63,913 nucleotides of DNA from an uncultured Smithella sp. (GCA_964480875.1 CAYZRT010000004.1:1-63913); one strand, 5' to 3'; numbered from the stretch's first letter, positions 1 to 20,174 are shown. Made by a program: numbers and translations. Notes: a model not told the origin generated them from the sequence alone.

Positions 1-534
1 GCGCGATGTAAGCGAATCTTGTTCGGCATTGAAAGCGGAGTTAATGAAGTTTTAGCCGGTGTGGGTAAAGGGTATACAACGGATGATGTGAAGCGGGGGA
101 TCGTTGCTGCAAGGTCTGCAGGACTCGAAATCTCCGCTTTTTTTATGCTCGGACTTCCGGGCGAGACAAAAGAAACGGCAAAACAGACGATAGACTTTGC
201 GCTATCGCTGGACATTGATTTTGCGAAGTTTGCGATAACGATACCGCTTCCCGGTTCGGAACTCTATGATAATCTGGTGAAGCAGGGTAAAATTTCAGAA
301 CCGGAATGGGAAAGGTTTACAACCTTCAATCCCAATCCGGACTCACTTCCCTATATTCCCGAGGGTATGACGGGAAAAGAGCTTTTGCGGCTGCATCGGA
401 TGGCAAACGTGAAGTTTTATCTGCGTCCGAAAATCATATTCCGGCATCTTTTTGTGATCCGTTCAATCGGTTTGAAAATGATGTTTAATGGGGCGATGCT
501 GATATTAAAACAATTATTTAAGGGCGGGAAGTAA
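1..534 (+). CDS. B12-binding-type radical SAM protein, C-terminal portion (5' end outside the window)
   Basis: Frame 1 is open from the window edge to TAA 532-534. ILFGIESG and FMLGLPGETKET...IPLPGSELY match the C-terminal halves of the paralogs at 6551, 9321(-) and 16460. Confidence 0.8.
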   Translation, partial: ARCKRILFGIESGVNEVLAGVGKGYTTDDVKRGIVAARSAGLEISAFFMLGLPGETKETAKQTIDFALSLDIDFAKFAITIPLPGSELYDNLVKQGKISEPEWERFTTFNPNPDSLPYIPEGMTGKELLRLHRMANVKFYLRPKIIFRHLFVIRSIGLKMMFNGAMLILKQLFKGGK

Positions 535-2081
535 TGCGATTGCTGTTTATTAGACCGCCGAAATATATATGGCCCTACATGAATGAGCAGGACAACTATC
601 TGCTTCCTCAGGCGCTTGCCTGCCTTGGAGCGGAAACCAGACGGCAAGGTCATGAGGTCATCCTTTTGGATTGTATGCCGCTCAAGATAGGTTGGAAGAG
701 TCTCGAACAAAAAATAAGAGATCTTGCACCACAGGTAGTATTAGCGGGAGATTCGGAGACGCTGTACGCTCACGAAAGCGGCAGAGTATTTCAGATTGCT
801 AAATCCGTTTCAAAGAATATTTTTACAGTCGCGGGTGGCGTGCATTTTTCGTACACTTGTGAGGATGCTTTTTCAAAGTATCCCATTGATGCAATCGTAA
901 GAGGCGAAGGCGAAAAAACGCTTTCTGAACTTTTACAGACGTTGGAAGGTGGCGGTGATCTGACCAAGGTAAAGGGGCTCGCATTACCGGCCGGTGACGG
1001 TCGTGTGATATATACAGGTTATCGGGAATTAATTACCAACCTGGACGAACTTCCGATTCCTGCTTATGATTTGTTGCCGATGGATCGCTATGGGACGGCG
1101 CGCTATCTGTTTTCTCCGGGCGGTGTGACCATTCATCACAGTCGCGGATGCGTCAGCGGTTGCAGTTTTTGTGCGTGTTGGATTCAGATGGCTAAACGCG
1201 CAGGTGATCCGCCGAACGAGCAACTTTTCCCGCGCTGGCGCACCCGTTCCGTTGAACCCGTTGTTGATGAGATGGAACTTTTGCTAAAAAAATATGGTAA
1301 AAAATGTCTGGTGTTTGTGGATGATACTTGGAATGTCGACCCCGTGTGGAGCAACGGATTCGCCGATGAGCTACTGCGAAAAAAGCTTGGCGTGAACTGG
1401 TTTGCGTTTTTCCGCTCAGATTTTATGGTGAGAGACGAGGAATCAGGTTTGTTCGAGAAACTGATTGCGTCAGGGTTAACTCACATCTGTGTAGGTTTGG
1501 AAAGGGCAAATGATGAAGAGCTTGATAAGTTGGAGAAGCACAATTCAAATCCGGAATTGATGTTGTCATTCATCCCGAAGATGCGCAAAAAATACCCGTC
1601 GCTCTTTTTACAGACGACGTTTATCGTAGGGCTTAGGCAGGATACAAAGGAAAGCATGGAGCGACTGCTCAATTATGTTGAAAAGCTAAATCCTGACTAT
1701 CCCGCATTCCATCCGGTGACGCCCGTCCCCGGCACGCCGTTGTGGAAGGAAGCAAAGGGAAATGGATGGCTTGAGATAACGGATTTTGCAAAATACGATT
1801 GGATGACTCCGGTCATGCGCACAGATGCGATGACGCGCGAAGACTTGGAGTTAACGATTTGGGAGATGAACCGTCGCTATCTGAATCCGCTTCGGATTGC
1901 GCGGGGAATCTTTTCGCCGCGCAAATATCGTCGTCGGATGTATATGTGGTGGTTTGTGGTAAGCGTACGCGCAATTTTTGATTATTTGCTGGATCATCTG
2001 TTTATCCCACGCTCATCAAGGCGTGGCGAAAGTCTATCAGAGTATGTGGGATTAGTAAGACCCAAATGGTACAATAAATAG
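534..2081 (+). CDS. Class-B (cobalamin-binding domain) radical SAM enzyme
   Basis: The ATG overlaps the upstream stop (TAATG at 532-536). An N-terminal Rossmann-like B12-type domain (VVLAGDSE...VAGGVHFS...IVRGEGE) is followed by the CxxxCxxC motif HHSRGCVSGCSFCACW. Confidence 0.85.
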   Translation: MRLLFIRPPKYIWPYMNEQDNYLLPQALACLGAETRRQGHEVILLDCMPLKIGWKSLEQKIRDLAPQVVLAGDSETLYAHESGRVFQIAKSVSKNIFTVAGGVHFSYTCEDAFSKYPIDAIVRGEGEKTLSELLQTLEGGGDLTKVKGLALPAGDGRVIYTGYRELITNLDELPIPAYDLLPMDRYGTARYLFSPGGVTIHHSRGCVSGCSFCACWIQMAKRAGDPPNEQLFPRWRTRSVEPVVDEMELLLKKYGKKCLVFVDDTWNVDPVWSNGFADELLRKKLGVNWFAFFRSDFMVRDEESGLFEKLIASGLTHICVGLERANDEELDKLEKHNSNPELMLSFIPKMRKKYPSLFLQTTFIVGLRQDTKESMERLLNYVEKLNPDYPAFHPVTPVPGTPLWKEAKGNGWLEITDFAKYDWMTPVMRTDAMTREDLELTIWEMNRRYLNPLRIARGIFSPRKYRRRMYMWWFVVSVRAIFDYLLDHLFIPRSSRRGESLSEYVGLVRPKWYNK

Positions 2082-2096
2082 TTTTGAAGGAGATAC

Positions 2097-3425
2097 ATGA
2101 TTAATTACCATAATACACCCGCCATTATTTATGTTCATCCTAAGACACCCATGTTGTTTCGATGTATGCTCCCTATGTCGGTGCCAGCTATTATTAATAG
2201 AATCTCCTATCCTGTGGTTGGCTATTATCCTGATGAATTGCGTTTAGTTGATTTAAATAAGGTGAAAATAGTTATTATGGACATTCATTGGTATCTTTCT
2301 TTGAACGGTGCGCTTGAACTTGCTGCGTACATTAAAGAAAAAAAAACAAATATTATTATTATCGCGGGTGGATTGACGGCAAGCCTTTTTGCAGACATTT
2401 TGGTGAAAAATACGCCCATTGATTATATTATTCGTGGGGATGGTGAGGTTCCAACAGCACGACAGGTTGATGCGTTGATAAATGACAAAAATATAGAAAC
2501 AATTCCAAATCTTGTAGGGAAACATGAATTTGTTACCCCGTGGTCATTTAAGTTATCTCAAGAAGAAATAAATTTTAATAAGTATTATGATATTAATTTT
2601 TTTCCGTCGTTTAAGCGCGACACATATAAAATACATCAATACAACTCCGGTTGGCCGGTATCGATTTTTCCGTATTTGGCGTCATTTAGGGGGTGTCCGG
2701 TTGACTGTAAAAATTGTCTTGGCGGATTGTCTGAGCAACAAATACAGTTTAGGCGCGGACCGGTTTTTCGCACAGCGGAGAATGTGAAAAGAGATTTAGA
2801 ATTTTTATCAGACAATAAGAGCATTACTTTTGCAAATAATCATATAGATTACGTTGCTTTTTATGAAGATAAGGATGTGCAGTCTTTATTTTCACAGTGT
2901 TATAAATTAAAAATTCAACATGATTTCATAAAGGTGCCGCAAAAGCATATTTTAGAAATTTTTTTGAACAGTTTTTCAGGCGGTACAATTTGTTTTAGTA
3001 TGGACACATACCATTCAACATCAGAGATAATTGAAGATCCGGGAAAACTTATCGAAGCAATTAATATGGTTAAAGCAAAAAAATGGTACTATCCATTACT
3101 CTATTATGCGAGAAGATATCTTAAATCAAACAAAGAATACAGGGCAGCATTGAAATATATCGTTAAAAAAACACATTGTAGCCTGTATTATTCTGACTTT
3201 TTTTGGGGAGATGCTCCTTTTCCAAATAAGGAAGGGAATGGCGATATGTCGGAGTATGCCCGCTGTATGGCTATGTCACAAGGCCAAGGAAATAAATTCA
3301 AGGCGCCTAAACTTTTAGCAAACGGTGGTTTATTGGTGGATCGTTTTCTTCCGTGTTTGTCAATCCCTATACGACAATTAATTTACAAATGTCAAAATAA
3401 TTTTCCCTTATCTTTTTTTAAGTAA
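2097..3425 (+). CDS. Divergent radical SAM protein with a B12-binding-like N-domain
   Basis: IIIAGGLTAS...YIIRGDGE is followed by FRGCPVDCKNCLG (CxxxCxxC). It is much more diverged than the other paralogs and lacks their GxPGET C-terminal block. Confidence 0.65.
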   Translation: MINYHNTPAIIYVHPKTPMLFRCMLPMSVPAIINRISYPVVGYYPDELRLVDLNKVKIVIMDIHWYLSLNGALELAAYIKEKKTNIIIIAGGLTASLFADILVKNTPIDYIIRGDGEVPTARQVDALINDKNIETIPNLVGKHEFVTPWSFKLSQEEINFNKYYDINFFPSFKRDTYKIHQYNSGWPVSIFPYLASFRGCPVDCKNCLGGLSEQQIQFRRGPVFRTAENVKRDLEFLSDNKSITFANNHIDYVAFYEDKDVQSLFSQCYKLKIQHDFIKVPQKHILEIFLNSFSGGTICFSMDTYHSTSEIIEDPGKLIEAINMVKAKKWYYPLLYYARRYLKSNKEYRAALKYIVKKTHCSLYYSDFFWGDAPFPNKEGNGDMSEYARCMAMSQGQGNKFKAPKLLANGGLLVDRFLPCLSIPIRQLIYKCQNNFPLSFFK

Positions 3426-3461
3426 AAGATATTCTTGCTAAATCATCAATGGCGTTATTGT

Positions 3462-4274
3462 CTAAGAAGGCTGCCTATGGATGATTACGCGATCTACGAA
3501 CGGAGGAATTTCGCATGGCGGATTTTCATAATAGACGGTATTACCCCGGTAAATAAATCGCGTATTGTCACCGTGCGGAGTGAGCCGAAAATAACGTTCT
3601 GCGCAATGGTGTCGGCAGCTATAAATGCCAGGTATGCGTCCTGGACTCGTCAGCCGTTCGACGGGCTGGCAGAACCTTGTACTCGTTATATATACATATG
3701 GGGTGTGGAGACTGTACTCAAAGTCTGTCACGCCCACGGTGCCAAAACCCTGTTGCGGATTTTGTATTTCAATTCTCGACACATGTCGTTCTTTTAAAAA
3801 CCTTGCGAAAATTGGATTATTAACGGATATATGTTGAAACTCCGCTCGTTTTTTTTCAAGTTCCGACCCGTCGAACGCTGTGTCAAGTATTTCCATAATC
3901 CTGGGGTCACTTCGCTGAAAAGCGAGTATTATACCGGCGACAGGTTTAAGTCCTTTGAAATCTGTTGCAATCGTCGTGAGAAATCCGAGATCGTTAGCGA
4001 TGACCTCGGAACCTGGCGCTAAAGAAGTGAGCGTTTCAGCCAATGCAATTGCGTGTCCTATATGCGACTCCGTCAAATACGGCGTAACAAGGTGAAGACT
4101 AAGACCGCGCTCCTGCGCCGTCCAAATAAATCCAGCCAGTTCTTCACGGGTCGGTAAAGCCTCCTGACAAAACCCGCTGCCAACGTACACTCCGGTGAAT
4201 TCAGCTTTTCCGCAAGGCATCTCTGCCGCTCTCTCGATAAATATTTTTTTATCCGGTTCTTTCTTTTCAGCCAT
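3462..4274 (-). CDS. U32-family protein, small UbiV-like partner
   Basis: 270 aa. GVYVGSGFCQ...LHLVTPYL...VIANDLGF...VAGIILAF follows the layout I recall for UbiV (VIYLGEAVCS...VLSTLAL...IEASDLGV...VAGHALN). It lies 30 nt downstream of the larger U32 gene. Confidence 0.55.
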   Translation of the reverse strand: MAEKKEPDKKIFIERAAEMPCGKAEFTGVYVGSGFCQEALPTREELAGFIWTAQERGLSLHLVTPYLTESHIGHAIALAETLTSLAPGSEVIANDLGFLTTIATDFKGLKPVAGIILAFQRSDPRIMEILDTAFDGSELEKKRAEFQHISVNNPIFARFLKERHVSRIEIQNPQQGFGTVGVTDFEYSLHTPYVYITSTRFCQPVERLTSPGRIPGIYSCRHHCAERYFRLTPHGDNTRFIYRGNTVYYENPPCEIPPFVDRVIIHRQPS

Positions 4275-4304
4275 CTGCTTTCAGGATTTCGCTCCGCTCA
4301 ATTT

Positions 4305-5432
4305 TTATTTGGTAATTTTATCAATCCCAAAGTTTATAACCTCTTTCTTATCCGGCTCGCAGTAGTAGCAGAATCCTTCGCCGCAGTAATTGGGATAGAG
4401 ATCCATTCTCATTTTTTTAACTGTATTCGTGTATTCGAGGCGGGACGGATTGCTTTTTAGCAAGGCTAGGGCGTCGCGCACCATGCGCGTGTCCGCACAC
4501 TTACGAGACGTTAGATTCTGGCGTCCAACAATCTTTACCGACTCTACGCCGGGCACCTGCACGATGTCATACAGTGCACAAAGACCGCATGCCTCGCGAA
4601 AATTATTCAGTGTATCAAAAAATCTGAAATTTAGTTCTGATGCGAGTACCTTGCCGTCTACCGCGTTTACCAAATCCGCTTTATATTCCCTGCAGCACAT
4701 CATTCCATTGCAGGCCGCAAACCTGTCCTGAATATGGTTAATTAGCCGATTTCGGTAAGTGCCGAAAAGGAAGGACATCTTGCGGCCAAGTAAACATTGT
4801 GCCAGCGCAGCCGCGTATGTAAACAAACCACCTTTCACCCTGTATGTTGCATGCTCGAATCGGCACAACGAATTCGGGAAATAACAGCGTTCTGACATTA
4901 TGAAAACTTCGAACCCGGTTTGGGGGCATGCCGCCGCCGTATCCGCGATCTCGCCTATGGTAAGATGCCGCGGCAGCGTAATTCGTGAAGCACCAAAATC
5001 GCGGTACAGCCGCACTGTATGAGAATTGAACGCCCCCCCGAACGTACTGATAATAACTTTTACACCAGGATATTTTTCATTCAAATAAGTAATCAACGCG
5101 ATATCGGCAACGATCAGGCCGTCAGCTCCGCAGGCGATGATCTTCTCAACCTCCGATTCAACCACCGAAAACTGTGCTTTCGTGTAGAACGCATTATAAG
5201 TAACGTATGTTCTCATTCCGTGCTGCCGCGCCGCCGCAACAATCTCAGACAGCTCATAGAAGTCTGAGAGATTTGCTTCCGGTACCTGCCGTGAATTCAA
5301 CGAAAACACGTTTGTATATTCCCGCTGCACTTCGCGGCGCATTATTCCACAGTATAGCTCTGTTGCGCCGGCCGCATGTAACGGTCCGACTTCGCTCAAA
5401 CTGTTTATAGGTGAAAGAATTTCCATATTCAT
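4305..5432 (-). CDS. U32-family protein, UbiU-like large partner
   Basis: 375 aa. The N-terminus MEILSPINSLSEVGPLHAAGATELYCG and the block GADGLIVADIALITYLNEKYP...ITLPRHLTIGEI...FEVFIMSERCYFPNSLCRFEH parallel UbiU (LEVFAFGSLCIMSEGRCYLSS). Confidence 0.75.
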   Translation of the reverse strand: MNMEILSPINSLSEVGPLHAAGATELYCGIMRREVQREYTNVFSLNSRQVPEANLSDFYELSEIVAAARQHGMRTYVTYNAFYTKAQFSVVESEVEKIIACGADGLIVADIALITYLNEKYPGVKVIISTFGGAFNSHTVRLYRDFGASRITLPRHLTIGEIADTAAACPQTGFEVFIMSERCYFPNSLCRFEHATYRVKGGLFTYAAALAQCLLGRKMSFLFGTYRNRLINHIQDRFAACNGMMCCREYKADLVNAVDGKVLASELNFRFFDTLNNFREACGLCALYDIVQVPGVESVKIVGRQNLTSRKCADTRMVRDALALLKSNPSRLEYTNTVKKMRMDLYPNYCGEGFCYYCEPDKKEVINFGIDKITK

Positions 5433-5489
5433 TCCATTTTTGAATAAGCTGTTCTGTTTATACTTTACATCTGGTTTTCCGCATTTCTG

Positions 5490-6260
5490 CTATGCCGGTC
5501 GTGCGGGCTTAGCTGTTTCATAACATATTGAAGCCCGCGATCTGGTTGTTCGGCAGTCAATTCCCAGTCCAGCCATCAAACCTGTGACCTTTTTTTCAGG
5601 GAGCGCGTTTCGTATCGAAAGCGCGAGCGCCGTTTCACCTTTGCTCGACAGCCCGATCCGATCCTTCATTTTCACATAAGCTGCATACCCTCTTGCAAGA
5701 AGCGATTCAGGATTCAAGTCGACAATAACAAGATTGCCGCCGGGTTTGAGTACGCGCCACATTTCCGAAATCATCCTGCGCGCGTCCTCGAAATGATGAA
5801 GAGACGCCTCCGAATAAACAAGATCGAAAACATCCGCAGCAAACGGCAGCGAATTGTCATCATTACGGACAAGTATCACCCGGGTGCCCATATTGGGTTT
5901 GTTCACCTTGGTTGCGAAACGGAGCATCTCCGGATCGATGTCGCAGCCCGTAACCAGAACGCTTTCTTTTGTGAGGCCGATTATTTGCTGTAACGTTAAC
6001 CCGGCACCGCATCCAACTTCCAGAACTGACATCGCATGACAGTGATTCATAAACCGGAGACATATCTTACGTGCATGACGCGAAGGGCGTTGTTTGTTCC
6101 TGTAAAGAAAAAATTCTTCTGTAGTCATCCCTTCTTTATTTATGATGCTCATTTGACCGATTTCTCCTATTTGACTTGCATTAACTTCTTTATAACATCC
6201 GCACATATGCGTTCTGTTAAAGATTATATATTCCCGCGCCGATTGAATTGTGACCCGCAA
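5490..6260 (-). CDS. Class I SAM-dependent methyltransferase (UbiE/Methyltransf_11-like)
   Basis: Motif I is VLEVGCGAGL, followed by VTGCDIDPEM and LKPGGNLVIVD. The real start may be the internal ATG at 6152 (MSIINKEG). Confidence 0.8.
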   Translation of the reverse strand: MRVTIQSAREYIIFNRTHMCGCYKEVNASQIGEIGQMSIINKEGMTTEEFFLYRNKQRPSRHARKICLRFMNHCHAMSVLEVGCGAGLTLQQIIGLTKESVLVTGCDIDPEMLRFATKVNKPNMGTRVILVRNDDNSLPFAADVFDLVYSEASLHHFEDARRMISEMWRVLKPGGNLVIVDLNPESLLARGYAAYVKMKDRIGLSSKGETALALSIRNALPEKKVTGLMAGLGIDCRTTRSRASICYETAKPARPA

Positions 6261-6550
6261 GCAGAATCTTATATAGAATTTCGCCCGCCGATATAATGGA
6301 ATAGATGACGGACTTCAAAAAGTCGGGTAGATAAAAATATTTTGCGGAGGAAAGTATAGGAAGTACGATTTTGTATGTCAACAATTTATTGCTAAAATGG
6401 AATTAATGGAATTAATAAACTTGTAATTCATTAGGTGACATGATAATTTCTCTAATAAAAAAATATAGATAAATAATTTCACGCTGTGGTCTCCGCCTCA
6501 GGGGAATAAACTGCATAAATGAATATCAGTATGAACTTATTTTTAAAAAC

Positions 6551-8005
6551 ATGAATAACACCCTCCCTAAAAAACATAGGGTATTATTGATCGTACCTGT
6601 TCCATCATCCAGATATAATCAATTTACCATCAATTATTATGCTCCAAATATCGGTTTGGCAAGCATAGCAGGGTATTTGATTGAAAAAAATATTGAAGTA
6701 GAAATTTTTGATGGAATTATTGATTCAAGCTTAAGAAATTTGTATAAAAAAATAGAAAGCTATACTCCAACACATATAGGAATTTCAGCTTTCACTTCAA
6801 ATATAAAATCGGCATGGAAGACAGCTCAAGCTATTAAAACTAAATTTAATCAAATCCCAATAACTATTGGGGGACTTCATGTATCAGCATTACCGGAAGA
6901 GTCGCTGGCAGAATGTCCTTATGTAGATTATGTCATCGTTGGCGAAGGCGAAGAGAGCTTCTATTCTTTATTGGAAAATATAAATACTCCACAAAATTTC
7001 AATAAAATAAAGGGGCTGGGCTACAGAATTAATTCAAAAATAATCATAAATCCTCCTTCCGATCATTATCATATAAATATGGATACTTTGCCTATGCCTG
7101 CTTGGCATTTATTCGATTGGGATAAATACAAGGAATACCCTTTCAGGGATAAGCATATCAATTCTAATCCTCATGAATTTCTTCTACAGACAACAAGAGG
7201 CTGTCCCTATTCATGTAAATTTTGTTCTCGTAATTTTGGGAATAAAGTCAGACAAAAATCACCTAATATAGCGGTTGATGAAATTTCAGTTTTGATAAAT
7301 TCCTTTAATGCAAAATATCTGCTTTTTGTGGATGAAACATTTACTATAAACAAAGAATATACAAAAAATCTTTGTAACCTTATTATTAAACGTGGTCTAA
7401 ACAAGAAGATCTCATGGTCCTGTGGAACTAGAATTGATAAATTGGATAAGGAAATATTAACTCTAATGAAAAATGCGGGATGCGTAAGTATTTTTGTGGG
7501 TTTGGAATCCGGATCACAAAAAATATTAAATTTAATAAATAAAGGTGTTAAAAAGAGCTGTTTTTCTAATGCGTTGAAGAATATAAAAGAACAGGGAATT
7601 AGTACAGTAACAAGTTTTATTTTGGGATTTCCTGGTGAAACCAAAGAAGATATAAAACAAACCATAGATTTATCACTTACTTTACCATTGGATTTTGTTT
7701 CATTTAATATTTTCACCCCGTTTCCAGGTTCAGAATTTTACAAAACCATATCTGTCTCAGATACTATCACTCTTAAAACACACGATTGGGATCGTTATGT
7801 AACACAAACTGGCTCATATCAGTTAAACCAGCCATCTATAAGAACAATAGATATTATTATATTGCATATACTTGCTTACTTAAGATTTTATCTTAGAAAA
7901 AATTGTTTTCATAAAATCTTTCAGATTATTAACATTAAAGTGCTATTTTATTTGCTAATAAATAAAATAACTGCAAAGATTTTTGCGGATCCCTATGAGG
8001 AATGA
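6551..8005 (+). CDS. Class-B (cobalamin-binding domain) radical SAM enzyme
   Basis: RVLLIVPVP...ITIGGLHVSALPEE...VIVGEGEE, then TTRGCPYSCKFCS, then FILGFPGETKEDIKQT...FTPFPGSEFY. Very AT-rich coding sequence. Confidence 0.85.
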   Translation: MNNTLPKKHRVLLIVPVPSSRYNQFTINYYAPNIGLASIAGYLIEKNIEVEIFDGIIDSSLRNLYKKIESYTPTHIGISAFTSNIKSAWKTAQAIKTKFNQIPITIGGLHVSALPEESLAECPYVDYVIVGEGEESFYSLLENINTPQNFNKIKGLGYRINSKIIINPPSDHYHINMDTLPMPAWHLFDWDKYKEYPFRDKHINSNPHEFLLQTTRGCPYSCKFCSRNFGNKVRQKSPNIAVDEISVLINSFNAKYLLFVDETFTINKEYTKNLCNLIIKRGLNKKISWSCGTRIDKLDKEILTLMKNAGCVSIFVGLESGSQKILNLINKGVKKSCFSNALKNIKEQGISTVTSFILGFPGETKEDIKQTIDLSLTLPLDFVSFNIFTPFPGSEFYKTISVSDTITLKTHDWDRYVTQTGSYQLNQPSIRTIDIIILHILAYLRFYLRKNCFHKIFQIINIKVLFYLLINKITAKIFADPYEE

Positions 8006-8048
8006 ATCGTAACCAACCTGGTACGACGTAACATTATATCTTGCGTAT

Positions 8049-8495
8049 TTATGGTAATATGATGTCTTGGCAATGTGTTACGTCCATATAGCGCAATTTG
8101 ATAAAAGTATAAATGAAAACACAAATGAATGTAGCAGTTACAAACATTGCGTTGGGAATTGGATTAAATAATAACCTGCAATAAACAATAAACAAATATA
8201 CTGCAAAGATGAATGTGATTTCTTTATTATACTTAACCATGCCGACCCATCCTATTATTTGCAGTATTGCCCGAACCCAAAATCCTATATGCATAGCCCA
8301 TTTTAAGTCATTTGAAAGAACAAGAATGAAAAGAAAAAAACCATACCATAGTTGCTCACGCGGCAGTTTTTTCTTAACAAAGAAATAAATGCAAAAAAAT
8401 ATGACGGTAGTATAAGACCAGCCGCCCATTAATAAAAATGGAGCAATATTGTCATTGATGTAGAATAGACTTAACGACCGCCAATTCATGTTCAT
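8049..8495 (-). CDS. Small polytopic membrane protein, unknown function
   Basis: 148 aa with about 4 hydrophobic helices by eye. It is third in a run of three small membrane ORFs on the minus strand. Confidence 0.55.
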   Translation of the reverse strand: MNMNWRSLSLFYINDNIAPFLLMGGWSYTTVIFFCIYFFVKKKLPREQLWYGFFLFILVLSNDLKWAMHIGFWVRAILQIIGWVGMVKYNKEITFIFAVYLFIVYCRLLFNPIPNAMFVTATFICVFIYTFIKLRYMDVTHCQDIILP

Positions 8496-8506
8496 TGCGG
8501 CAGTTT

Positions 8507-8929
8507 CTATTGGTATGCATATGAAGATCGAAAAAACGCTGCAAATATGACGAAATTTTTATAATCCCTTACTGTTTTTGGGTCAATCAGCTTATTTACA
8601 AACTCGTAAGCTAAATAAAATGTAAAAATCCAACCAACGGGGATAAAAATAGGCACATTCAAAAGCTTTATTGGCATATTGGGAAATTCATAAGAACGGA
8701 TAAATGAAAAATAATAAAATTCACGTACAAAACCGAACAGAAATCCTCCTACGAAAAACTCAAAAGTAAATCTACAGCCCTTGGTCAATAGGCTATGGAT
8801 GATCATTATTGAAAAGGCTATTCCTACGGATATGATAAATACTTCAAGCTTAAGCATGGGGTTGCCTCGTTTTATTGATGCGATACGTGATGGCAAAAAA
8901 CAATACAAGAGGCAGCAATGTAAGTCCAA
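8507..8929 (-). CDS. Small polytopic membrane protein, unknown function
   Basis: 140-aa ORF. The likely start is the internal ATG at 8857 (MLKLEVFIISVG), which overlaps the stop of the upstream 65-aa ORF by 8 nt. It has hydrophobic helices and a VPIFIPVGWIFTFY motif. Confidence 0.5.
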   Translation of the reverse strand: MDLHCCLLYCFLPSRIASIKRGNPMLKLEVFIISVGIAFSIMIIHSLLTKGCRFTFEFFVGGFLFGFVREFYYFSFIRSYEFPNMPIKLLNVPIFIPVGWIFTFYLAYEFVNKLIDPKTVRDYKNFVIFAAFFRSSYAYQ

Positions 8930-9047
8930 TCTCGACAGAAGACAGCAGAATGGCTACATAAATAATAACACCGCAAAAAATTAAAATAACAGAAAAAAGC
9001 AGAAGGTCTAAAATCATATTTTTTCTTTGCATTAATATTGGCCTCAA
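8850..9047 (-). CDS. Small (65 aa) two-helix membrane protein, hypothetical
   Basis: Two hydrophobic stretches (LLLFSVILIFCGVIIYVAILL, LTLLPLVLFFAI). Its position suggests translational coupling with the next ORF. Confidence 0.35.
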   Translation of the reverse strand: MRPILMQRKNMILDLLLFSVILIFCGVIIYVAILLSSVEIGLTLLPLVLFFAITYRINKTRQPHA

Positions 9048-9061
9048 ATTACTTATAATTT

Positions 9062-9288
9062 TTTATTGTGAGACTCAAATTTCAAAAGCGTAGCGCATTG
9101 AAATTTGTAAGTCGAACAATCCCGCACAGCGGAGGGTAATGAAACCCAAACTTCAGAAAGAGCGCGTAAGGAAGCTTGTAGGTCGAATGATCCTACCTAT
9201 GCATGGATATATACCCTGCCCCTTGGGGCGTAATTAGGTTCCAGTCCCGATAGCAATCGGGATTGCCCTGGGGTTCATACCCGTGATT
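9062..9288. repeat. Structured dispersed repeat, copy A (two hairpin units plus a 78-nt 3' module)
   Basis: Units A1 (9068-9117) and A2 (9138-9188), each followed by a short hairpin. The 3' module 9211-9288 differs at only 4 of 78 positions from 26960-27037. Confidence 0.75.
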
Positions 9289-9320
9289 TTCGTATCTGAT
9301 ACCCTTTTTCGCTATAAATA

Positions 9321-10781
9321 TCAAAATAATTTGTTTTGAAAGAAGTTTCTGGCCAGGAGAAATGTAATCTTAAATAACGCTTTGATATACATTATCGCCT
9401 CGGGGAAAGTGCGTATATTAAACAAATGGCGAAGAATAAAGGATGGACGAAAATAAAAATCGCGGTAACTTTTCAAATAGTATTTTTTAACAGTTTTATC
9501 AGATATCGTATCTAATTTTAAAATAGGTTGGCCCAGGTTATAAAGGTCCCAGTGATAATGCAAAAGACCATTTTTGCTGAAGAATTCTTTATACATGGCT
9601 GTTCCCGGATAAGGCGTGGTAATATTGAAGACAGCAAATTTAAGTCCGGCGTTTTTGGCAAATTTTATTGTTTTATCCATGCTGGCTTCCGTTTCTCCCG
9701 GACTGCCAAGCATGAAAGCTCCACGAATGTCTATCTTTGCTTTTTTCGTCCATTCGATTGCGTTTCGGGATTGCATTAGGTTGGTATGCTTATTAATGTT
9801 TTTTAAAATGGTTTCATTTGCCGTCTCAAAACCGTACATGATTTGGTGGCAGCCTGCTTTTTTCATAAGAGCCAGCAATTCCGGGGTTACGGTATCCACC
9901 CTCGCAAAACATGACCAACTGATTTTAATTCTCGTTTCCAATATCAACTGACACAATCCGGAGACGTTTTTTTTATTGGCCGTAAACGTGTCATCATAAA
10001 AGGATATCTCTCTAATATTGTATTTTTTTTGTAAAAGCTCAATATGTTGAACGATTCTTTCCGGAGAAGTGAATCTGATTGCAGAACCAAACATTCCCGA
10101 AAAACAGAAAGCGCACTTTCCGGGACATCCCCGGGATGTTACCATTCCAATGGATGGATTTTGTCTTGCCGCACCTAAGGCAGAATGATACAAGTGCATG
10201 GGTAGTTTTTCGTAAGCGGGGAACGGCAACGACTCTAGGTCCACATATTCTAAAGCATCAGGATTTATAATGACGTCATGTTGCTGATTTCGCCAGGTCA
10301 AATTGGGGATAAGATGCAACGGCGTTCCTTTGGCCAACTCAGTGATAAAGGCTTCGCCTTCGTTCCGCACAGCCATATCGCAAATTTTATCCCGCACAAG
10401 ATCTTCATGGAAAACCGTTGGGTGAACCCCTCCCATGATGATTTTGATATCTGGAAATATTTTACGTATGCCACGGGCGATTGAAGCGGCGCTGGAAATT
10501 TCCGGCGTCGTCGCGGTAAGTCCGATATAATCCGTGACGGGATTTATTCTTTCAATAATTTCCTGAACACTGAGTTTTAAAGCAGCCGCATCAATGATTT
10601 GCGATGTCTGTCCCTGCTTATCCCAGATTGCGGCCAGCAGCGCCAATCCCAGCGGAGGAATGTCGGAATTAATCACACTCCATATGTTATTATGGTTTAT
10701 TTTTCTTGGCGGATTAATGAAGGCAATATTCATAAATAATTGATTATAATTTATAGTATTTTTGTTATTTTTTTTGAACAA
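9321..10781 (-). CDS. Class-B (cobalamin-binding domain) radical SAM enzyme
   Basis: IFPDIKIIMGGVHPT...MAVRNEGE, then TSRGCPGKCAFCFSG, then FMLGSPGETEASMDKT...TTPYPGTAMY. The start may be ATG 10733 (MNIAFINPP). Confidence 0.85.
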   Translation of the reverse strand: MFKKNNKNTINYNQLFMNIAFINPPRKINHNNIWSVINSDIPPLGLALLAAIWDKQGQTSQIIDAAALKLSVQEIIERINPVTDYIGLTATTPEISSAASIARGIRKIFPDIKIIMGGVHPTVFHEDLVRDKICDMAVRNEGEAFITELAKGTPLHLIPNLTWRNQQHDVIINPDALEYVDLESLPFPAYEKLPMHLYHSALGAARQNPSIGMVTSRGCPGKCAFCFSGMFGSAIRFTSPERIVQHIELLQKKYNIREISFYDDTFTANKKNVSGLCQLILETRIKISWSCFARVDTVTPELLALMKKAGCHQIMYGFETANETILKNINKHTNLMQSRNAIEWTKKAKIDIRGAFMLGSPGETEASMDKTIKFAKNAGLKFAVFNITTPYPGTAMYKEFFSKNGLLHYHWDLYNLGQPILKLDTISDKTVKKYYLKSYRDFYFRPSFILRHLFNIRTFPEAIMYIKALFKITFLLARNFFQNKLF

Positions 10782-11445
10782 TAAGAATCAGAGATTGTCC
10801 CACGGGAGGTCTGATGATTTTTTCTGCAAGGCATAAAAAAGGAACAATTTTGTCGAATAATATTGTCTGTTTTACCGGTAGTTCTTTCTTTTTGAATATT
10901 CGTCCATTGACAAACCAGCCCAATAAACCGAGGAAATTCATATAAAAAAAATCAACTATTTTTAAATTTTTATCGTTGATCAGCAGCTTTAAATCTTTTT
11001 TATTATATCGATGTAAATGATTGAAAGAAACATCCATTGAACCATAAAGTGTTTTTAAAGCAGGCACAAGAATGATTAACTTTCCTTCTCTGTCCAGGAT
11101 AGAGATCATATTATCAATGGCTTTATAGTCTTTTTCTAAATGTTCAAGGATGTTAAGACAGAGTATCGTATCGAATTTTTTATCGGCAATGGAAGATAAT
11201 GTGATGTTTTGAATATCGATATTGAAAACATCAAAATTTAACTTGTCACGAAATGAATATTTGGCATTTAAATAATCTATATAATCCTGATTTATATCAA
11301 TAAGCGTTAAATTATTTTTGAATATAATGAAATCGGTAATATTGCCTATCCCGGCGCCCACTTCCAAAATATTATTGCCAATATGATTATGAATATTATC
11401 GTATATCCAATAATTATAATTAAAGCGTTCGGATAATAACAGCAA
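10765..11445 (-). CDS. Class I SAM-dependent methyltransferase
   Basis: Motif I is ILEVGAGIGNITDF, followed by FDTILCLNILEHL and GKLIILVP. The 3' end overlaps the ORF of the downstream radical SAM gene. Confidence 0.8.
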   Translation of the reverse strand: MLLLSERFNYNYWIYDNIHNHIGNNILEVGAGIGNITDFIIFKNNLTLIDINQDYIDYLNAKYSFRDKLNFDVFNIDIQNITLSSIADKKFDTILCLNILEHLEKDYKAIDNMISILDREGKLIILVPALKTLYGSMDVSFNHLHRYNKKDLKLLINDKNLKIVDFFYMNFLGLLGWFVNGRIFKKKELPVKQTILFDKIVPFLCLAEKIIRPPVGQSLILIVQKK

Positions 11446-11773
11446 AGATTGTTTTATTTTATCAGCGCCGGTGTTTATGCTTTCTATTTTATAAATCCTC
11501 CAACTGGTAACATTTGGCGTGTATTATACTCGTCGCAGGATGATTTGCAAAATATTTATGAAAAAAATGTTGCAATAGTTGTTAAAAAACTAAATAATCG
11601 CTCAAACAAATTTTAAATGCAAAATACCACCAGAGGACTTTTGTCGAGCTCAACACAGATGATCCTTAAATTATGATTTGCCAGACGCATTTTTTTAATT
11701 GTTGTTAATTTATTATTATCGAAGGAATTCTAAGATTAATACCTTAAGATTTTAAAATGATTTAAATTTATTT

Positions 11774-13408
11774 ATGGATTTGCCGGAATTGTCATCAAAA
11801 GAATCCCCCTGCGCTGGATATAGACAGCGCGCTTATTGCTTCTTCAACCGATTAAATATCTTTGATCTATTGGTAATCATTATCTGCATAGCAAGTTTTG
11901 GATTCAGTTTAATTGAGTCGATGGTTAACGCGGATAATCAGCATTGGGGCGGCGTTTATTTACAGGCCCTGGATATTAAAAGAGGAGCAATGCCGCATTC
12001 CGAAGTAATGATTTTCCATGGATATATTCACGCGTTGATTCAAAGCGCTGCGTTAATATTATTTGGCGAAAGATTAATAAGCGTGGGAATAATCACGGGG
12101 CTATTTTATTCTTTTACGTTATTTCTTTCGTATTGTATTTTTTCCAGATTTATGAAAAAGAGTCTTGCCTTTATTGCCGTATTGTTAATCTTTTTAATTC
12201 ATCCTTACATTATTTATCCTTATCCTAATTATTTTGCCTATCCTTTTCAACTGCTGGCGCTTATTTTTTTTCTGCGATATCCGGAACAACATTTAAATGG
12301 TTTGCTGGCCGGATTTTTCCTGGGCTTGTCGGTACTTGCGCGGTATTCTTCGGTTATAGCGGTTCTTCCGCCCTTTATAAGTCTTCTTCTATGGGATTTC
12401 TTTGCCATGAAAGAAGAGAGAAAAAACGCCATTAATAAAATCGTTACAGTAGCCTGCGGTTTTCTTGTTCTTTTGGCTTCTTTTTTTTTATATCTCTTCG
12501 TTAACTCCGCCCTGGATGATTTCTATAATCAGAATAAGATACTAATCACTATCCTGGGAAGAGTCAGTGACGCTGATACCTGGCTTAATTTTTTAGCCTC
12601 TGTGTTTCAAGTTGTCCCGAGTTACGCTTCCGATTTACGTGGTAAGCTCTTTACTTTCATATTAATAGTCTGCCTGTTTATACCGGTTCGGGAAATCATC
12701 AGGAAAATATCAGGGGGTGTAACAAAGTCGGTATATGCCCGTTATGATGTAATAGCTGTGTGTCTTCTGGCTATTTTCGGGTATTTGAATTCGGTGCACG
12801 TTTATGAAACATTACGACTGATTAACGGCGCGTCTTTAGGCGTTGGAATATGCGTTCTGGTTTTCTATAATATTTTCAAGAATGCAGGAAAAAAAATAAA
12901 ATATGTAATGTTATTTTTGATTATTCTTTTATTTTTACTTTTATCATCCAGCCTCTTGTTCAGCAGAACCACGTCATCCTATTACCCGTGGAGCCTGAAT
13001 GTTTTATTGCGTGATGGAGTGACGAACAAAACTATCGGAATATTTAAAGGTAAAATTCTTACCAAAGAATACAATGATTTTTATCAGGAAGTATTTAATG
13101 TCATTGCGCCGTATAAAAATTGTTGTTACATACTTAATTATACGCAGGATGTAGTAGCTTTTTTGGTCAATGATTTGCCTCGCCTCCAAATATCGGGTGT
13201 GCACTTTCCCGGTATTGACGATCTTTCTAAACAGGAGAAATTAATTCATCAAAACAAGGCAGTGATACTTTCATTTATAAAATTGGATTTGCCTGGTTAC
13301 TCTTTAATATTTGCCAGGAGATGGCCGGAGGAAATACCGTGGATGGGTGGCGGGTATTTATTCATATATGCGCCAAAACTCCAAGCATGCGGTATTCAAT
13401 CCTTGTAA
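11774..13408 (+). CDS. Large polytopic membrane protein, GT-C-like (ArnT/PMT-type) candidate
   Basis: 544 aa. The first ~400 residues contain more than 10 hydrophobic segments by eye, followed by a soluble C-terminal domain. No catalytic motif could be verified by eye. Confidence 0.5.
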   Translation: MDLPELSSKESPCAGYRQRAYCFFNRLNIFDLLVIIICIASFGFSLIESMVNADNQHWGGVYLQALDIKRGAMPHSEVMIFHGYIHALIQSAALILFGERLISVGIITGLFYSFTLFLSYCIFSRFMKKSLAFIAVLLIFLIHPYIIYPYPNYFAYPFQLLALIFFLRYPEQHLNGLLAGFFLGLSVLARYSSVIAVLPPFISLLLWDFFAMKEERKNAINKIVTVACGFLVLLASFFLYLFVNSALDDFYNQNKILITILGRVSDADTWLNFLASVFQVVPSYASDLRGKLFTFILIVCLFIPVREIIRKISGGVTKSVYARYDVIAVCLLAIFGYLNSVHVYETLRLINGASLGVGICVLVFYNIFKNAGKKIKYVMLFLIILLFLLLSSSLLFSRTTSSYYPWSLNVLLRDGVTNKTIGIFKGKILTKEYNDFYQEVFNVIAPYKNCCYILNYTQDVVAFLVNDLPRLQISGVHFPGIDDLSKQEKLIHQNKAVILSFIKLDLPGYSLIFARRWPEEIPWMGGGYLFIYAPKLQACGIQSL

Positions 13409-13582
13409 ATGAATTCAATACATTGATCCTGTGAATTTCTATGAGGCATGAAAATGGTTTACGTCTAGATGTCGGAGATGCTTCTGATAAAGCAAAGGTT
13501 TTTTGAAATTGAATTTTTGCTAATAATGCAACCAAAAGAACTGATGAACATTGCGCCATTATGAAATTTTGTTAGTGATAGT

Positions 13583-15238: not shown

Positions 15239-15395
15239 GAAATAGTGCAAAACACTCTTTAATTTATGTTGTTATATTGTATTTAAATCATCGTAATAAA
15301 TATGATTCAATCTTATTTAAAATACATTATTTTGTTTTTCTTTTCATTATTTCCGATTTTTTGTTGAAACAACGGAGGAGAATCTTTTATTATTT

Positions 15396-16451: not shown

Positions 16452-16459
16452 GGGAATTA

Positions 16460-17920: not shown

Positions 17921-17977
17921 CAATGAATCATAATAAAAAAGATTAATATAAGAATTTATGACCTGTATTTCATTGAC

Positions 17978-19936: not shown

Positions 19937-20174
19937 AACTGTTTTGAGGATAATTTTCACCCTCTGCTCATAACACTCCAACGCACAGGCGCCGTCTGTA
20001 TCGTATTGACACCCGATGCACATCGTTCTGCCACGAAAAACAGGTTCTTATCAGAGATGAATGTATGAAAATTGTTCTGGTTCATTGGAAAGGGAATGAT
20101 GCTCCTGTGCCCGCTTTATTTTTACTGTTATAAGAAGTTGACGGTCGTATAGAGATATGAGAAAAGGTTGATAT

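What the first reader, a model, noticed from the sequence alone, without database searches (positions are those of the whole stretch)
3462..6260. UbiU/UbiV-like U32 pair co-transcribed with a UbiE-like methyltransferase: O2-independent hydroxylation plus methylation module in a non-ubiquinone context
Seen: on the minus strand the order is methyltransferase (6260-5490), large U32 (5432-4305) and small U32 (4274-3462), with 57-nt and 30-nt gaps. The large protein carries FEVFIMSERCYFPNSLC, matching the UbiU Fe-S region. The small one follows the UbiV layout.

Established: UbiU-UbiV form a [4Fe-4S] heterodimer that hydroxylates the ubiquinone ring without O2. The related U32 proteins TrhP and RlhA hydroxylate RNA.

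Inference: an anaerobe of this type is not expected to make ubiquinone. The operon also sits among radical SAM and envelope genes. The substrate may therefore be a different quinone, lipid or glycan that is hydroxylated and then methylated.
Basis: partly seen in the sequence, partly recalled or inferred. Interest (0 to 1): 0.65.

Follow-up and report, generated by a model that had tools for sequence, protein, structure and literature searches.

The report
Mobile U32 iron-sulfur pair plus methyltransferase
A Smithella-type syntrophic bacterium carries a horizontally acquired three-gene cassette for a two-subunit iron-sulfur enzyme, related to the oxygen-free hydroxylases UbiU/UbiV, plus a methyltransferase; it belongs to a large unnamed enzyme family of anaerobes and is not part of ubiquinone synthesis.

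Summary
Two corrections apply. The methyltransferase starts at 6152 (220 aa), not 6260. The "small U32" matches no Pfam or NCBIfam model; only fold and profile-profile comparisons show its U32 nature.

Neither protein is a UbiU or UbiV orthologue. The pair belongs to a distinct large-plus-small U32 family found across Bacteria and Archaea:
- The large subunit has seven conserved Cys.
- The small subunit has a UbiV-like CXnCX17CX3C layout.
- Small-large, methyltransferase-small and small-methyltransferase gene fusions exist elsewhere. They support one enzyme functionally coupled to methylation.

The genome has no ubiquinone, classical menaquinone or futalosine pathway. It does have chorismate mutase and a separate TrhP-like U32 gene.

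The trio looks horizontally acquired as a unit:
- It is 60-75% identical to relatives in a distant high-GC lineage whose housekeeping proteins are only about 50% identical.
- It was absent from 150 other sampled genomes of the order.
- Its GC is 0.48 against 0.29-0.35 in the flanks.

The link to the neighbouring radical SAM and envelope genes is therefore doubtful.

Most likely function: O2-independent hydroxylation followed by methylation. The substrate is unknown.

The parts
6353..6381 (-). Promoter-like site (TTGACA, 17 nt, TATACT; 11 of 12 matches) upstream of the methyltransferase gene
   Evidence: This is a consensus match only; no transcript data were found.
5490..6152 (-). Class I SAM-dependent methyltransferase, 220 aa. 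The mechanical ORF extends to a TTG at 6260.
   Evidence: Pfam Methyltransf_11 E 6e-22, Methyltransf_25, and Ubie_methyltran E 5e-16 as a partial match. All NCBIfam hits are below cut-off; the best is the DVU_1556 family at 73 bits against 155. Start from the alignment with the L102 orthologue and the RBS. Identity is 27% to E. coli UbiE and UbiG, with no CmoA similarity.
4305..5426 (-). Large U32 subunit, 373 aa (an alternative ATG lies at 5432). TIM-barrel U32 domain with seven family-conserved Cys: C183-X6-C190, C246, C282-X2-C285 and C350-X4-C355, numbered on the 375-aa ORF.
   Evidence: PF01136 E 7e-26. UbiU and TrhP NCBIfam models hit far below cut-off. Cys conservation. AlphaFold2 pLDDT 81.5, with top PDB hit 5D88 at E 2.5e-8.
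3462..4274 (-). Small partner subunit, 270 aa. U32-fold protein invisible to domain libraries; invariant C36, C202, C220 and C224.
   Evidence: No Pfam or NCBIfam hit. 1387 representatives at E<=1e-3 in the 50%-identity library. Cys. Fold. hhalign 93.5% and 95%.

Best explanation
The three genes form a self-contained, horizontally acquired operon.

The 373-aa and 270-aa proteins are the two subunits of one iron-sulfur enzyme. It belongs to a large, unnamed large+small branch of the U32 superfamily, a sister group to UbiU, TrhP and RlhA.

By analogy with UbiU-UbiV, each subunit would hold a [4Fe-4S] cluster. In the small subunit the ligands would be C36, C202, C220 and C224. In the large subunit they would be C183, C190, C246 and one further ligand. 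The large subunit would also carry an extra four-Cys metal site (C282, C285, C350, C355).

The enzyme would oxidise a carbon of its substrate without O2 and add a hydroxyl group. Prephenate is the likely oxygen donor, since the genome encodes chorismate mutase. The 220-aa SAM methyltransferase would then methylate the product, most simply turning the new hydroxyl into a methoxy group.

The substrate is not ubiquinone. I think it is most likely a small aromatic metabolite, cofactor or lipid head group that core metabolism supplies, rather than the product of the neighbouring radical SAM and glycosyltransferase genes.

Shown here: gene structure, family membership, Cys conservation, U32 fold, pairing and fusion of the parts, horizontal origin, and absence of quinone pathways. 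Inferred: Fe-S binding, hydroxylase chemistry, prephenate use, O-methylation and substrate class.
For: One enzyme of two subunits:
- Large and small genes are adjacent in 63 of 83 loci from many phyla.
- A natural small+large fusion exists, P0141.

Coupling to methylation:
- The order methyltransferase-large-small recurs in the window, UBA6255 and at least seven contigs of a distant lineage.
- Independent large-small-methyltransferase arrangements occur in Clostridium MAGs L049 and L054.
- Fusions Methyltransf_11::small (P0059) and small::Methyltransf_11 (P0185) each lie next to a large-subunit gene.

Fe-S and U32 nature:
- Conserved Cys sets.
- Both models hit 5D88 best.
- hhalign gives 95% probability.
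- The literature on UbiU/UbiV clusters and prephenate: PMC6747719 and PMC10990095.

Not ubiquinone:
- No UbiD.
- No tblastn hit for E. coli UbiB, UbiJ, UbiT, UbiV, MenD, MenF or MenC.
- No MqnA/D.

Prephenate supply: a CM_2 chorismate mutase is present.

Mobile unit:
- Against L102, the large subunit is 75% identical, the small 68% and the methyltransferase 60%. DnaJ and PhoH are only 53% and 51%.
- GC is 0.47-0.49 in the trio and 0.29-0.35 in the flanks.
- The small subunit is found in 1 of 151 sampled genomes of the order.

Functional genes: dN/dS 0.16-0.21.
Against: - No U32 enzyme has yet been shown to hydroxylate in vitro (PMC10990095, PMC11574389), so the chemistry is by analogy only.
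- The large subunit does not conserve the position of UbiU C193 and has four extra Cys, so the cofactor content may differ.
- The methyltransferase could be a C-, N- or S-methyltransferase, and it could act before the U32 step.
- In the wider family the pair often sits in operons with B12-radical SAM, GT-C or RiPP-type genes. The window's arrangement among such genes is kept in UBA6255. A link with the island is therefore not excluded.
- No expression data were found.
Confidence: 0.45

Rival explanations
1. The trio tailors the product of the surrounding accessory island, which holds six B12-type radical SAM genes, a SPASM enzyme, GT-C-like membrane proteins and a second methyltransferase. It would add a hydroxyl or methoxy group to an envelope lipid, glycan or peptide made there.
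For: - Other clades of the same large/small family are embedded co-directionally in operons with B12-radical SAM, radical SAM, PMT_2/GT-C and multi-pass membrane proteins. This is seen in Omnitrophota, Planctomycetota and Paceibacterota.
- The nearest clade member without a methyltransferase (L095) sits next to a B12-radical SAM gene.
- The whole arrangement is syntenic with UBA6255 over 8.9 kb.
- The flanking radical SAM gene is as lineage-restricted as the trio.
Against: - The trio's GC (0.47-0.49) differs sharply from most island genes (0.29-0.40).
- It is transcribed opposite to its immediate neighbours.
- All close relatives (55-75% identity) carry the trio with no radical SAM or GT-C genes. 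They sit next to FGE-sulfatase-like, PEP-synthase-like and housekeeping genes.
- In the tree the window's clade is separate from the B12/GT-C-associated clades.
Confidence: 0.2
2. The trio modifies RNA. It would be a non-orthologous analogue of the Bacillus subtilis yrrM-yrrN-yrrO (trmR-trhP2-trhP1) operon, in which two U32 paralogues make 5-hydroxyuridine in tRNA and a methyltransferase converts it to 5-methoxyuridine.
For: - The gene logic is the same: a methyltransferase plus two unequal U32 genes in one operon (PMC6599085).
- The wider family occurs in CPR bacteria and DPANN archaea and in housekeeping neighbourhoods. Neighbours include LipB-LipA, HrcA, ProRS, Orc1/Cdc6-like and PolD-like genes. 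That fits a universal substrate such as RNA.
- The genome has no CmoA or CmoB.
Against: - Neither subunit has the Peptidase_U32_C domain, and neither reaches the TrhP or RlhA models (74 bits against a cut-off of 534).
- The methyltransferase is Methyltransf_11/25 type, not the catechol-O-methyltransferase type of TrmR (PMC6599085).
- The genome already has a separate TrhP-like gene (378 bits, CX6CX15CX3C).
- The trio is a sporadic accessory trait, absent from 150 sampled relatives. That is unusual for a translation-related modification.
- Some genomes carry two to four paralogous pairs.
Confidence: 0.15
3. The pair is an Fe-S redox enzyme with other chemistry (dehydrogenation, reductive dehydroxylation or plain electron transfer), or a peptidase as the family's old name says. 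The methyltransferase would then act on something else.
For: - No U32 protein has a demonstrated in vitro hydroxylase activity, and the role of the clusters is unknown (PMC10990095; PMC11574389).
- The extra four-Cys site and the different third ligand suggest a cofactor set unlike UbiU.
- Some family clades sit beside FAD_binding_4 and CCG redox proteins.
Against: - All three genetically characterised U32 systems (UbiUV, TrhP, RlhA) are needed for O2-independent hydroxylations.
- Repeated coupling and fusion with a methyltransferase is most simply explained if the pair creates a methyl-accepting group.
- Strictly conserved Cys sets argue against a simple peptidase.
Confidence: 0.12
4. It is simply ubiU-ubiV plus ubiE/ubiG of an O2-independent ubiquinone pathway, as found in Desulfobacterota class GWC2-55-46.
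For: - Such a pathway exists in one Desulfobacterota class (PMC13386864).
- The genome has three MenA-like UbiA-family prenyltransferases, a UbiE/MenG-like gene on C20 and three SCP2-domain ORFs.
Against: - UbiU and UbiV model scores are far below cut-off or absent.
- The family is a separate clade from UbiU.
- There is no UbiD, UbiB, UbiJ or UbiT in a genome that is 90% complete.
- The prenyltransferases resemble MenA, not UbiA.
- None of these genes is linked to the trio.
Confidence: 0.02

Closest known systems
UbiU-UbiV (E. coli YhbU/YhbV), the O2-independent, prephenate-dependent hydroxylase of ubiquinone biosynthesis
   Same: - Two unequal U32-fold subunits of similar size (331/292 aa against 373/270 aa), encoded by adjacent genes.
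- The large subunit keeps the CX6C.
- In the small subunit the first Cys lies far upstream, after strand 2, and the remaining three form a C...CX3C group.
- Neither has an RNA-binding extension.
- A methylation step follows the hydroxylation.
   Different: - Not orthologous. The large protein scores 90 bits against a cut-off of 440, is 29% identical over the N-terminal half only, and falls in a separate clade.
- The small subunit is not detected by any U32 or UbiV model.
- Spacing is X17 instead of X12.
- The large subunit lacks a conserved C193 equivalent and has four extra conserved Cys.
- There is no UbiT partner and no ubi pathway.
- The methyltransferase is in the same operon, and in some relatives it is fused to the small subunit.
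TrmR-TrhP2-TrhP1 (B. subtilis yrrM-yrrN-yrrO), the 5-methoxyuridine pathway of tRNA
   Same: The operon holds a SAM methyltransferase plus two unequal U32 genes, both needed. The logic is hydroxylation followed by O-methylation.
   Different: - TrhP1 carries the Peptidase_U32_C domain, and both TrhP proteins match PF01136. Here the small subunit matches nothing.
- TrmR is a catechol-O-methyltransferase-type enzyme. Here the methyltransferase is Methyltransf_11/25 type.
- The genome has its own TrhP-like gene elsewhere.
TrhP (YegQ) and RlhA (YdcP), single-chain U32 RNA hydroxylation factors
   Same: U32 TIM-barrel with a conserved Cys motif, and O2-independent hydroxylation.
   Different: Those are single polypeptides with CX6CX15CX3/4C and C-terminal extensions. 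In the tree they group with UbiU as the outgroup to the whole large-subunit family.
Mk0906 of Methanopyrus kandleri (PDB 5D88), the only U32 protein matched in the solved-structure library
   Same: Best structural match of both predicted models (E 2.4e-5 and 2.5e-8).
   Different: Sequence identity is 14-15%. Its function is unknown and the crystal shows no cluster.

Membership tests
Peptidase_U32 superfamily (PF01136; 'U32 oxidases') | Match to the PF01136 profile above the gathering score | tested here: met
   Large subunit: 91.4 bits against 22.4. Small subunit: no match. By this criterion only the large one is a member.
Peptidase_U32 superfamily (PF01136; 'U32 oxidases') | U32-type TIM-barrel fold | tested here: met
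   5D88 is the top PDB hit for both models. For the small subunit (E 2.4e-5) it is the only hit at E<=0.001; for the large subunit (E 2.5e-8) many other TIM-barrel proteins also reach that threshold. The small family against canonical U32 profiles gives 95% probability, E 3.8e-8, over 181 columns. Against the large family it gives 93.5%.
Peptidase_U32 superfamily (PF01136; 'U32 oxidases') | Four conserved Cys that bind a [4Fe-4S] cluster (typical motif CX6CX15CX3/4C) | tested here: inconclusive
   Conserved Cys are present, but the motif is atypical in both subunits. Metal binding itself cannot be tested with these tools.
UbiU (NCBIfam NF047963) | Score above the equivalog cut-off | tested here: not met
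   90.3 bits against 440, matching only profile positions 1-174 of 331.
UbiU (NCBIfam NF047963) | Cluster ligands C169, C176, C193 and C232 (CX6CX16CX38C) | tested here: inconclusive
   C183 and C190 align with C169 and C176, and C246 aligns with C232, in the MAFFT alignment. No conserved Cys aligns with C193. Four further conserved Cys are absent from UbiU.
UbiU/UbiV system | Occurs with ubiT and the ubiA/B/D/E/G/X pathway | tested here: not met
   No UbiD. No tblastn hit for UbiB, UbiJ, UbiT or UbiV. The prenyltransferases are MenA-like. SCP2-domain ORFs exist but are unlinked.
UbiV (NCBIfam NF047965) | Match to the UbiV profile | tested here: not met
   No hit for the window protein or for any of 48 family members, even at E<=1. 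Direct hhalign against E. coli-type UbiV is not significant.
UbiV (NCBIfam NF047965) | Cys layout CXnCX12CX3C, with the first Cys far upstream | tested here: met
   The window's close clade has invariant C36, C202, C220 and C224, giving CXnCX17CX3C. In the wider 48-sequence family alignment, C36, C202 and C224 are invariant and C220 is nearly so. C220 and C224 align with UbiV C193 and C197. C36 aligns with C39. The spacing differs, and C202 aligns nearer the UbiU C169 position than UbiV C180.
TrhP / TrhP1-TrhP2-TrmR | TrhP profile above cut-off, a Peptidase_U32_C domain, and a COMT-type methyltransferase | tested here: not met
   TrhP model 74 bits against 534. No PF16325 domain. The methyltransferase is Methyltransf_11/25 type. 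A separate TrhP-like gene exists on C48/C114.
UbiE/MenG methyltransferases (TIGR01934) | Score above the family cut-off | tested here: not met
   57 bits against 158.35. Identity to E. coli UbiE is 27% over 138 residues. A better UbiE/MenG candidate lies on contig C20.
Prephenate-dependent hydroxylases | Oxygen atom derived from prephenate | not testable with these tools
   Only the prerequisite was checked: a CM_2 chorismate mutase gene is present on C59.

The most novel reading that the evidence does not exclude
The trio is a portable 'anaerobic methoxylation cassette'. It would consist of a two-subunit U32 enzyme with three metal sites that installs a hydroxyl group without O2, and a dedicated methyltransferase that caps it. 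The substrate class would be one not so far linked to U32 enzymes, neither quinone nor RNA. The cassette would represent a family of more than a thousand sequence clusters in anaerobic Bacteria and Archaea, including CPR and DPANN lineages. Domain libraries do not see the family's small subunit, and I found it described in no paper.
Probability: 0.35. Interest if true: 0.8.

Novelty: new variant of a known kind. Interest (0 to 1): 0.6.

Why it matters
O2-independent hydroxylation by U32 iron-sulfur proteins is a recent and still mechanistically open discovery. Only three systems are known genetically: ubiquinone, tRNA U34 and rRNA C2501.

This locus shows a fourth, much larger branch. It has its own subunit architecture, and its small subunit escapes all domain models, so genome annotation misses it.

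The compact, horizontally mobile trio offers a small, transferable test object for two tasks. One is finding a new substrate class for anaerobic oxygen insertion. The other is in vitro reconstitution, which has so far failed for UbiUV. The same three functions also occur in only two genes where the methyltransferase is fused to the small subunit.

For this genome, the result also corrects a tempting mis-annotation as ubiUV/ubiE.

Tried and rejected
- Sequence searches of both U32 proteins, and of E. coli UbiU and UbiV, against PDB chains found nothing.
- Direct BLASTP of small against large was uninformative.
- hhalign of the small family against a single E. coli UbiV, or against about 120 near-identical enterobacterial UbiV sequences, was not significant. 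A homologue search with E. coli UbiV returned only sequences at or above 85% identity, so it gave no useful profile. A mixed profile of 11 canonical U32 proteins did work.
- NCBIfam scans of 48 small-family members at E<=1 gave only noise.
- A paper search for the DVU_1556 methyltransferase family, the best NCBIfam hit of the methyltransferase, found nothing.
- I tested whether the methyltransferase might be a CmoA-like prephenate-using enzyme. It shows no similarity to E. coli CmoA.
- Isoelectric points do not separate RNA-acting from quinone-acting U32 proteins.
- The run search (kind 'any') returned no RNA run holding the locus, so co-transcription is inferred only.
- Coordinates of the predicted models are not returned, so I could not check which Cys cluster together in space.
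- The donor lineage could not be named. None of its genomes is among the named species representatives.
Full report
**Observation**

One search lists three co-directional minus-strand ORFs at 5490-6260, 4305-5432 and 3462-4274. They are separated by 57 and 30 nt. The 375-aa protein contains FEVFIMSERCYFPNSLC.

Two refinements apply:
- Relatives of the methyltransferase are 216-232 aa. The 219-aa orthologue of locus L102 aligns from its first to its last residue with 6152-5493. An AGGAGA precedes the ATG at 6152. The gene most likely starts there (220 aa).
- Database versions of the large protein start at MEILSP, position 5426.

A near-consensus promoter-like site (TTGACA-17-TATACT) lies at 6381-6353 on the same strand. 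No convincing terminator separates the genes. Against the orthologues in Syntrophaceae bacterium UBA6255, dN/dS is 0.16, 0.18 and 0.21. All three genes are therefore under purifying selection.

**What the proteins are**

The methyltransferase is a plain class I SAM enzyme:
- Pfam gives Methyltransf_11 and Methyltransf_25, and a partial Ubie_methyltran match.
- It reaches no NCBIfam cut-off. The best hit is the DVU_1556 family at 73 bits against 155; TIGR01934 (UbiE/MenG) gives 57 against 158.
- It is 27% identical to E. coli UbiE, UbiG and CmoB, and shows no similarity to CmoA.

The large protein is a true Peptidase_U32 (E 7e-26):
- It scores 90 bits against a UbiU cut-off of 440, and 74 against 534 for TrhP.
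- It resembles E. coli UbiU only over the N-terminal 190 residues, at 29% identity.

The small protein matches nothing in Pfam or NCBIfam, and neither do 48 diverse relatives. Its U32 nature rests on three results:
- Its AlphaFold2 model (pLDDT 92.9) has one significant PDB match, the U32 protein Mk0906, 5D88 (E 2.4e-5).
- Its family profile matches the large-subunit family at 93.5% probability.
- It matches a profile of 11 canonical U32 proteins, including E. coli UbiV, UbiU, TrhP and RlhA, at 95% probability, E 3.8e-8, over 181 columns.

The large model (pLDDT 81.5) also hits 5D88 best (E 2.5e-8).

**Cysteine ligands**

- Small subunit. Among the window's close relatives, C36, C202, C220 and C224 are invariant. 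Across 48 diverse family members, C36, C202 and C224 are invariant and C220 is nearly so. The layout is CXnCX17CX3C. UbiV has CXnCX12CX3C with C39, C180, C193 and C197 (PMC6747719). In the profile alignments C36 pairs with C39, and C220 and C224 pair with C193 and C197.
- Large subunit. C183-X6-C190 aligns with UbiU C169-X6-C176, and C246 aligns with C232. No conserved Cys matches UbiU C193. Four further Cys (C282-X2-C285 and C350-X4-C355) are invariant or nearly so across the family and absent from UbiU.

The refutation 'ligands absent' therefore fails. The cofactor set is probably not identical to that of UbiU.

**A separate, large, two-subunit family**

- A profile of the small subunit finds 1387 representatives at E<=1e-3 among 1.8 billion 50%-identity clusters.
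- A pattern scan of species-representative genomes with the large subunit returned 277 relatives. They include Omnitrophota, Chloroflexota, Thermodesulfobacteriota, Planctomycetota, Bacillota, Rhodocyclaceae, Bathyarchaeia, CPR bacteria (Paceibacterota, Falkowbacteria) and DPANN archaea (Iainarchaeum, Undinarchaeota, Altiarchaeota).
- In 63 of the 83 loci examined, a small-subunit gene lies next to the large one.
- In a tree, all 107 large-subunit sequences form one clade. E. coli UbiU, TrhP and RlhA and this genome's own TrhP-like protein fall outside it.
- Gene fusions tie the parts together. P0141 is small+large. P0059 is Methyltransf_11+small. P0185 is small+Methyltransf_11. The last two each lie directly after a large-subunit gene, one of them in an archaeal contig.

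I take this as good evidence that large and small form one enzyme. I also take methylation to be a recurrent partner reaction.

**Context tracks clade**

Within the family, subclades have their own neighbourhoods:
- B12-radical SAM, radical SAM, GT-C and multi-pass membrane proteins, in Omnitrophota, Planctomycetota and Paceibacterota.
- FAD_binding_4 plus CCG proteins, in Chloroflexota, Bathyarchaeia and Thermodesulfobacteriota.
- HemN-like radical SAM genes, in DPANN and CPR lineages.
- PqqD, radical SAM and ABC-exporter cassettes of RiPP type, in Omnitrophota.
- LipB-LipA, in Thermodesulfobacteriota.

The family therefore looks like a versatile tailoring enzyme with clade-specific substrates.

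**The window's own clade and its origin**

The window groups with 14 sequences (support 100). All those with known context carry the methyltransferase directly upstream. Apart from UBA6255, these relatives lie on contigs with 52-59% GC. The conserved block there is PQQ-propeller, PEP-synthase-like protein, 317-aa unknown, divergent FGE-sulfatase-like gene, methyltransferase, large, small. It lies beside housekeeping genes such as hrcA-dnaJ-rsmE-phoH. They have no radical SAM neighbours.

Several results point to horizontal acquisition as a unit:
- Against L102, the large subunit is 75% identical, the small 68% and the methyltransferase 60%. DnaJ and PhoH are only 53% and 51%, and HrcA gives no hit.
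- In the window the trio has 47-49% GC. Its immediate flanks have 29-35% and the genome mean is 43.9%.
- The small subunit was found in only 1 of 151 sampled genomes of the same order, including four of the same genus.

The trio was therefore most likely acquired horizontally as a unit, without the FGE-like and PEP-synthase-like genes. None of those has a homologue in this genome.

The flanking radical SAM gene 534-2081 also lacks orthologues in 30 genomes of the family. The whole 8.9-kb stretch is syntenic with UBA6255 at 92.7% nucleotide identity. The region is thus a mosaic accessory island. A cassette that works in such different neighbourhoods probably acts on something core metabolism supplies.

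The genome is 3.13 Mb and 90% complete.
- It has no UbiD and no MqnA/MqnD.
- It gives no tblastn hit for E. coli UbiB, UbiJ, UbiT, UbiV, MenD, MenF or MenC.
- It does have three MenA-like prenyltransferases, all below equivalog cut-offs.
- It has a UbiE/MenG-like gene on contig C20 and three unlinked SCP2-domain ORFs.
- It has a chorismate mutase, so prephenate is available.
- A second, canonical U32 gene is split over the ends of contigs C48 and C114. It is TrhP-like, with 378 bits and a CX6CX15CX3C motif.

A genuine O2-independent ubiquinone pathway with ubiTUV has recently been shown in Desulfobacterota class GWC2-55-46 (PMC13386864). 'Deltaproteobacteria do not make ubiquinone' is therefore no longer a safe premise. 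This genome nevertheless lacks that pathway.

**Mechanism proposed**

By analogy with UbiU-UbiV (PMC6747719), the prephenate work (PMC10990095) and the reviews (PMC11574389), I propose the following:
- The large and small proteins form a heterodimer with one [4Fe-4S] cluster each.
- The large subunit has an additional four-Cys site.
- The enzyme oxidises its substrate by two electrons and quenches it with a hydroxyl derived from prephenate.
- The methyltransferase methylates the product.

Everything after 'heterodimer' is inference.

The closest analogue in operon logic is B. subtilis yrrM-yrrN-yrrO, which makes 5-methoxyuridine in tRNA (PMC6599085). An RNA substrate is therefore a serious rival. 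Several points count against it: the separate TrhP-like gene, the absence of RNA-type extensions, the different methyltransferase class, and the sporadic, accessory distribution.

**Comparison with earlier notes of this scan**

Other agents met the same broad family in Omnitrophota, Elusimicrobiota and other genomes. They too described a domain-invisible UbiV-like partner and a seven-Cys large subunit. I reached these points independently here, so they agree, but they are not independent evidence of function.

New in this report:
- The methyltransferase-linked clade.
- Its transfer as a unit into a Smithella-type genome.
- The methyltransferase::small and small::large fusions.

**Verdict**

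This is a UbiUV-like enzyme type in a non-ubiquinone setting, probably hydroxylation plus methylation. It is not UbiU/UbiV or UbiE, and the link to the neighbouring envelope genes is doubtful.
- It is a new variant of a known kind.

Noticed in passing
genome contigs C48:3-701 (minus strand) and C114:3-570 (plus strand): A canonical TrhP-like U32 gene is cut in two by contig ends. The two halves overlap by 17 identical residues (YSYLLSSKDLCLIEYLP), so C48 and C114 join here. The joined 410-aa protein has CX6CX15CX3C and scores 378 bits on the TrhP model. The genome has no CmoA or CmoB homologue.
   Followed up: partly
genome contigs C26:13814-15007, C8:28069-29013, C132:3103-4008 and C20:8019-8726: There are three MenA-like UbiA-family prenyltransferases and one UbiE/MenG-like methyltransferase. 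The genome nevertheless has no MenD/F/C, no MqnA/D and no UbiD. This could be salvage of an external naphthoate head group, or prenylation of something else.
   Followed up: partly
window 1-20000: Strong GC mosaic. Genes 1-2081 and the trio have 46-49% GC. Genes 2097-3425 and 6551-15238 have 29-40% (a second methyltransferase at 10765-11445 has 29%). The genome mean is 43.9%. The island looks assembled from pieces of different origin.
   Followed up: partly
window 8049-8495 and 8507-8929 (minus strand): Two short membrane ORFs (148 and 140 aa) lie 11 nt apart. The second clusters with roughly 340-aa, roughly nine-helix membrane proteins without Pfam match. Those stand in arrays of up to four copies beside U32 pairs in Omnitrophota, Planctomycetia and Paceibacterota (L011, L017, L067). 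UBA6255 has the same two-ORF arrangement. This may be a split gene.
   Followed up: no
L020:1151-2899, L026:82-681 and L083 (Omnitrophota loci): Genes for a 2-oxoacid:ferredoxin oxidoreductase of the indolepyruvate-oxidoreductase layout lie at the head of the operon radical SAM-radical SAM-large U32. The domains are POR_N + TPP_enzyme_C + Fer4, plus a POR gamma-type subunit. Such an enzyme could consume phenylpyruvate, the by-product expected if prephenate donates the oxygen.
   Followed up: partly
L013, L014, L016, L019, L033, L036 (Chloroflexota, Bathyarchaeia); L015, L025, L029, L032, L037, L039, L059 (Thermodesulfobacteriota): FAD_binding_4 and/or CCG (HdrD-like) genes stand directly before the large U32 gene. 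They are candidates for the unknown electron acceptor of U32 oxidations. In the Thermodesulfobacteriota clade no small-subunit gene is adjacent.
   Followed up: no
L042, L045, L069, L073, L081 (Omnitrophota): One or two large+small pairs sit in cassettes with PqqD-like proteins and radical SAM enzymes, plus roughly 94-aa ORFs (L073) and ABC exporters (L069, L073). This is a RiPP-type context.
   Followed up: partly
L001, L002, L093, L094, L102, L103, L104: The high-GC lineage holding the closest relatives of the trio shows the gene orders nadK-recN-steA-mctB and hrcA-dnaJ-rsmE-phoH-ybeY. From memory these resemble actinobacterial synteny. The lineage could not be named with the tools. A 208-230-aa FGE-sulfatase-domain gene is always divergent from the methyltransferase there.
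   Followed up: no
window 9321-10781 and 10765-11445 (minus strand): A second class I methyltransferase overlaps the start of a B12-radical SAM gene by 17 nt. It forms a separate methyltransferase/radical SAM unit on the same strand as the trio.
   Followed up: no
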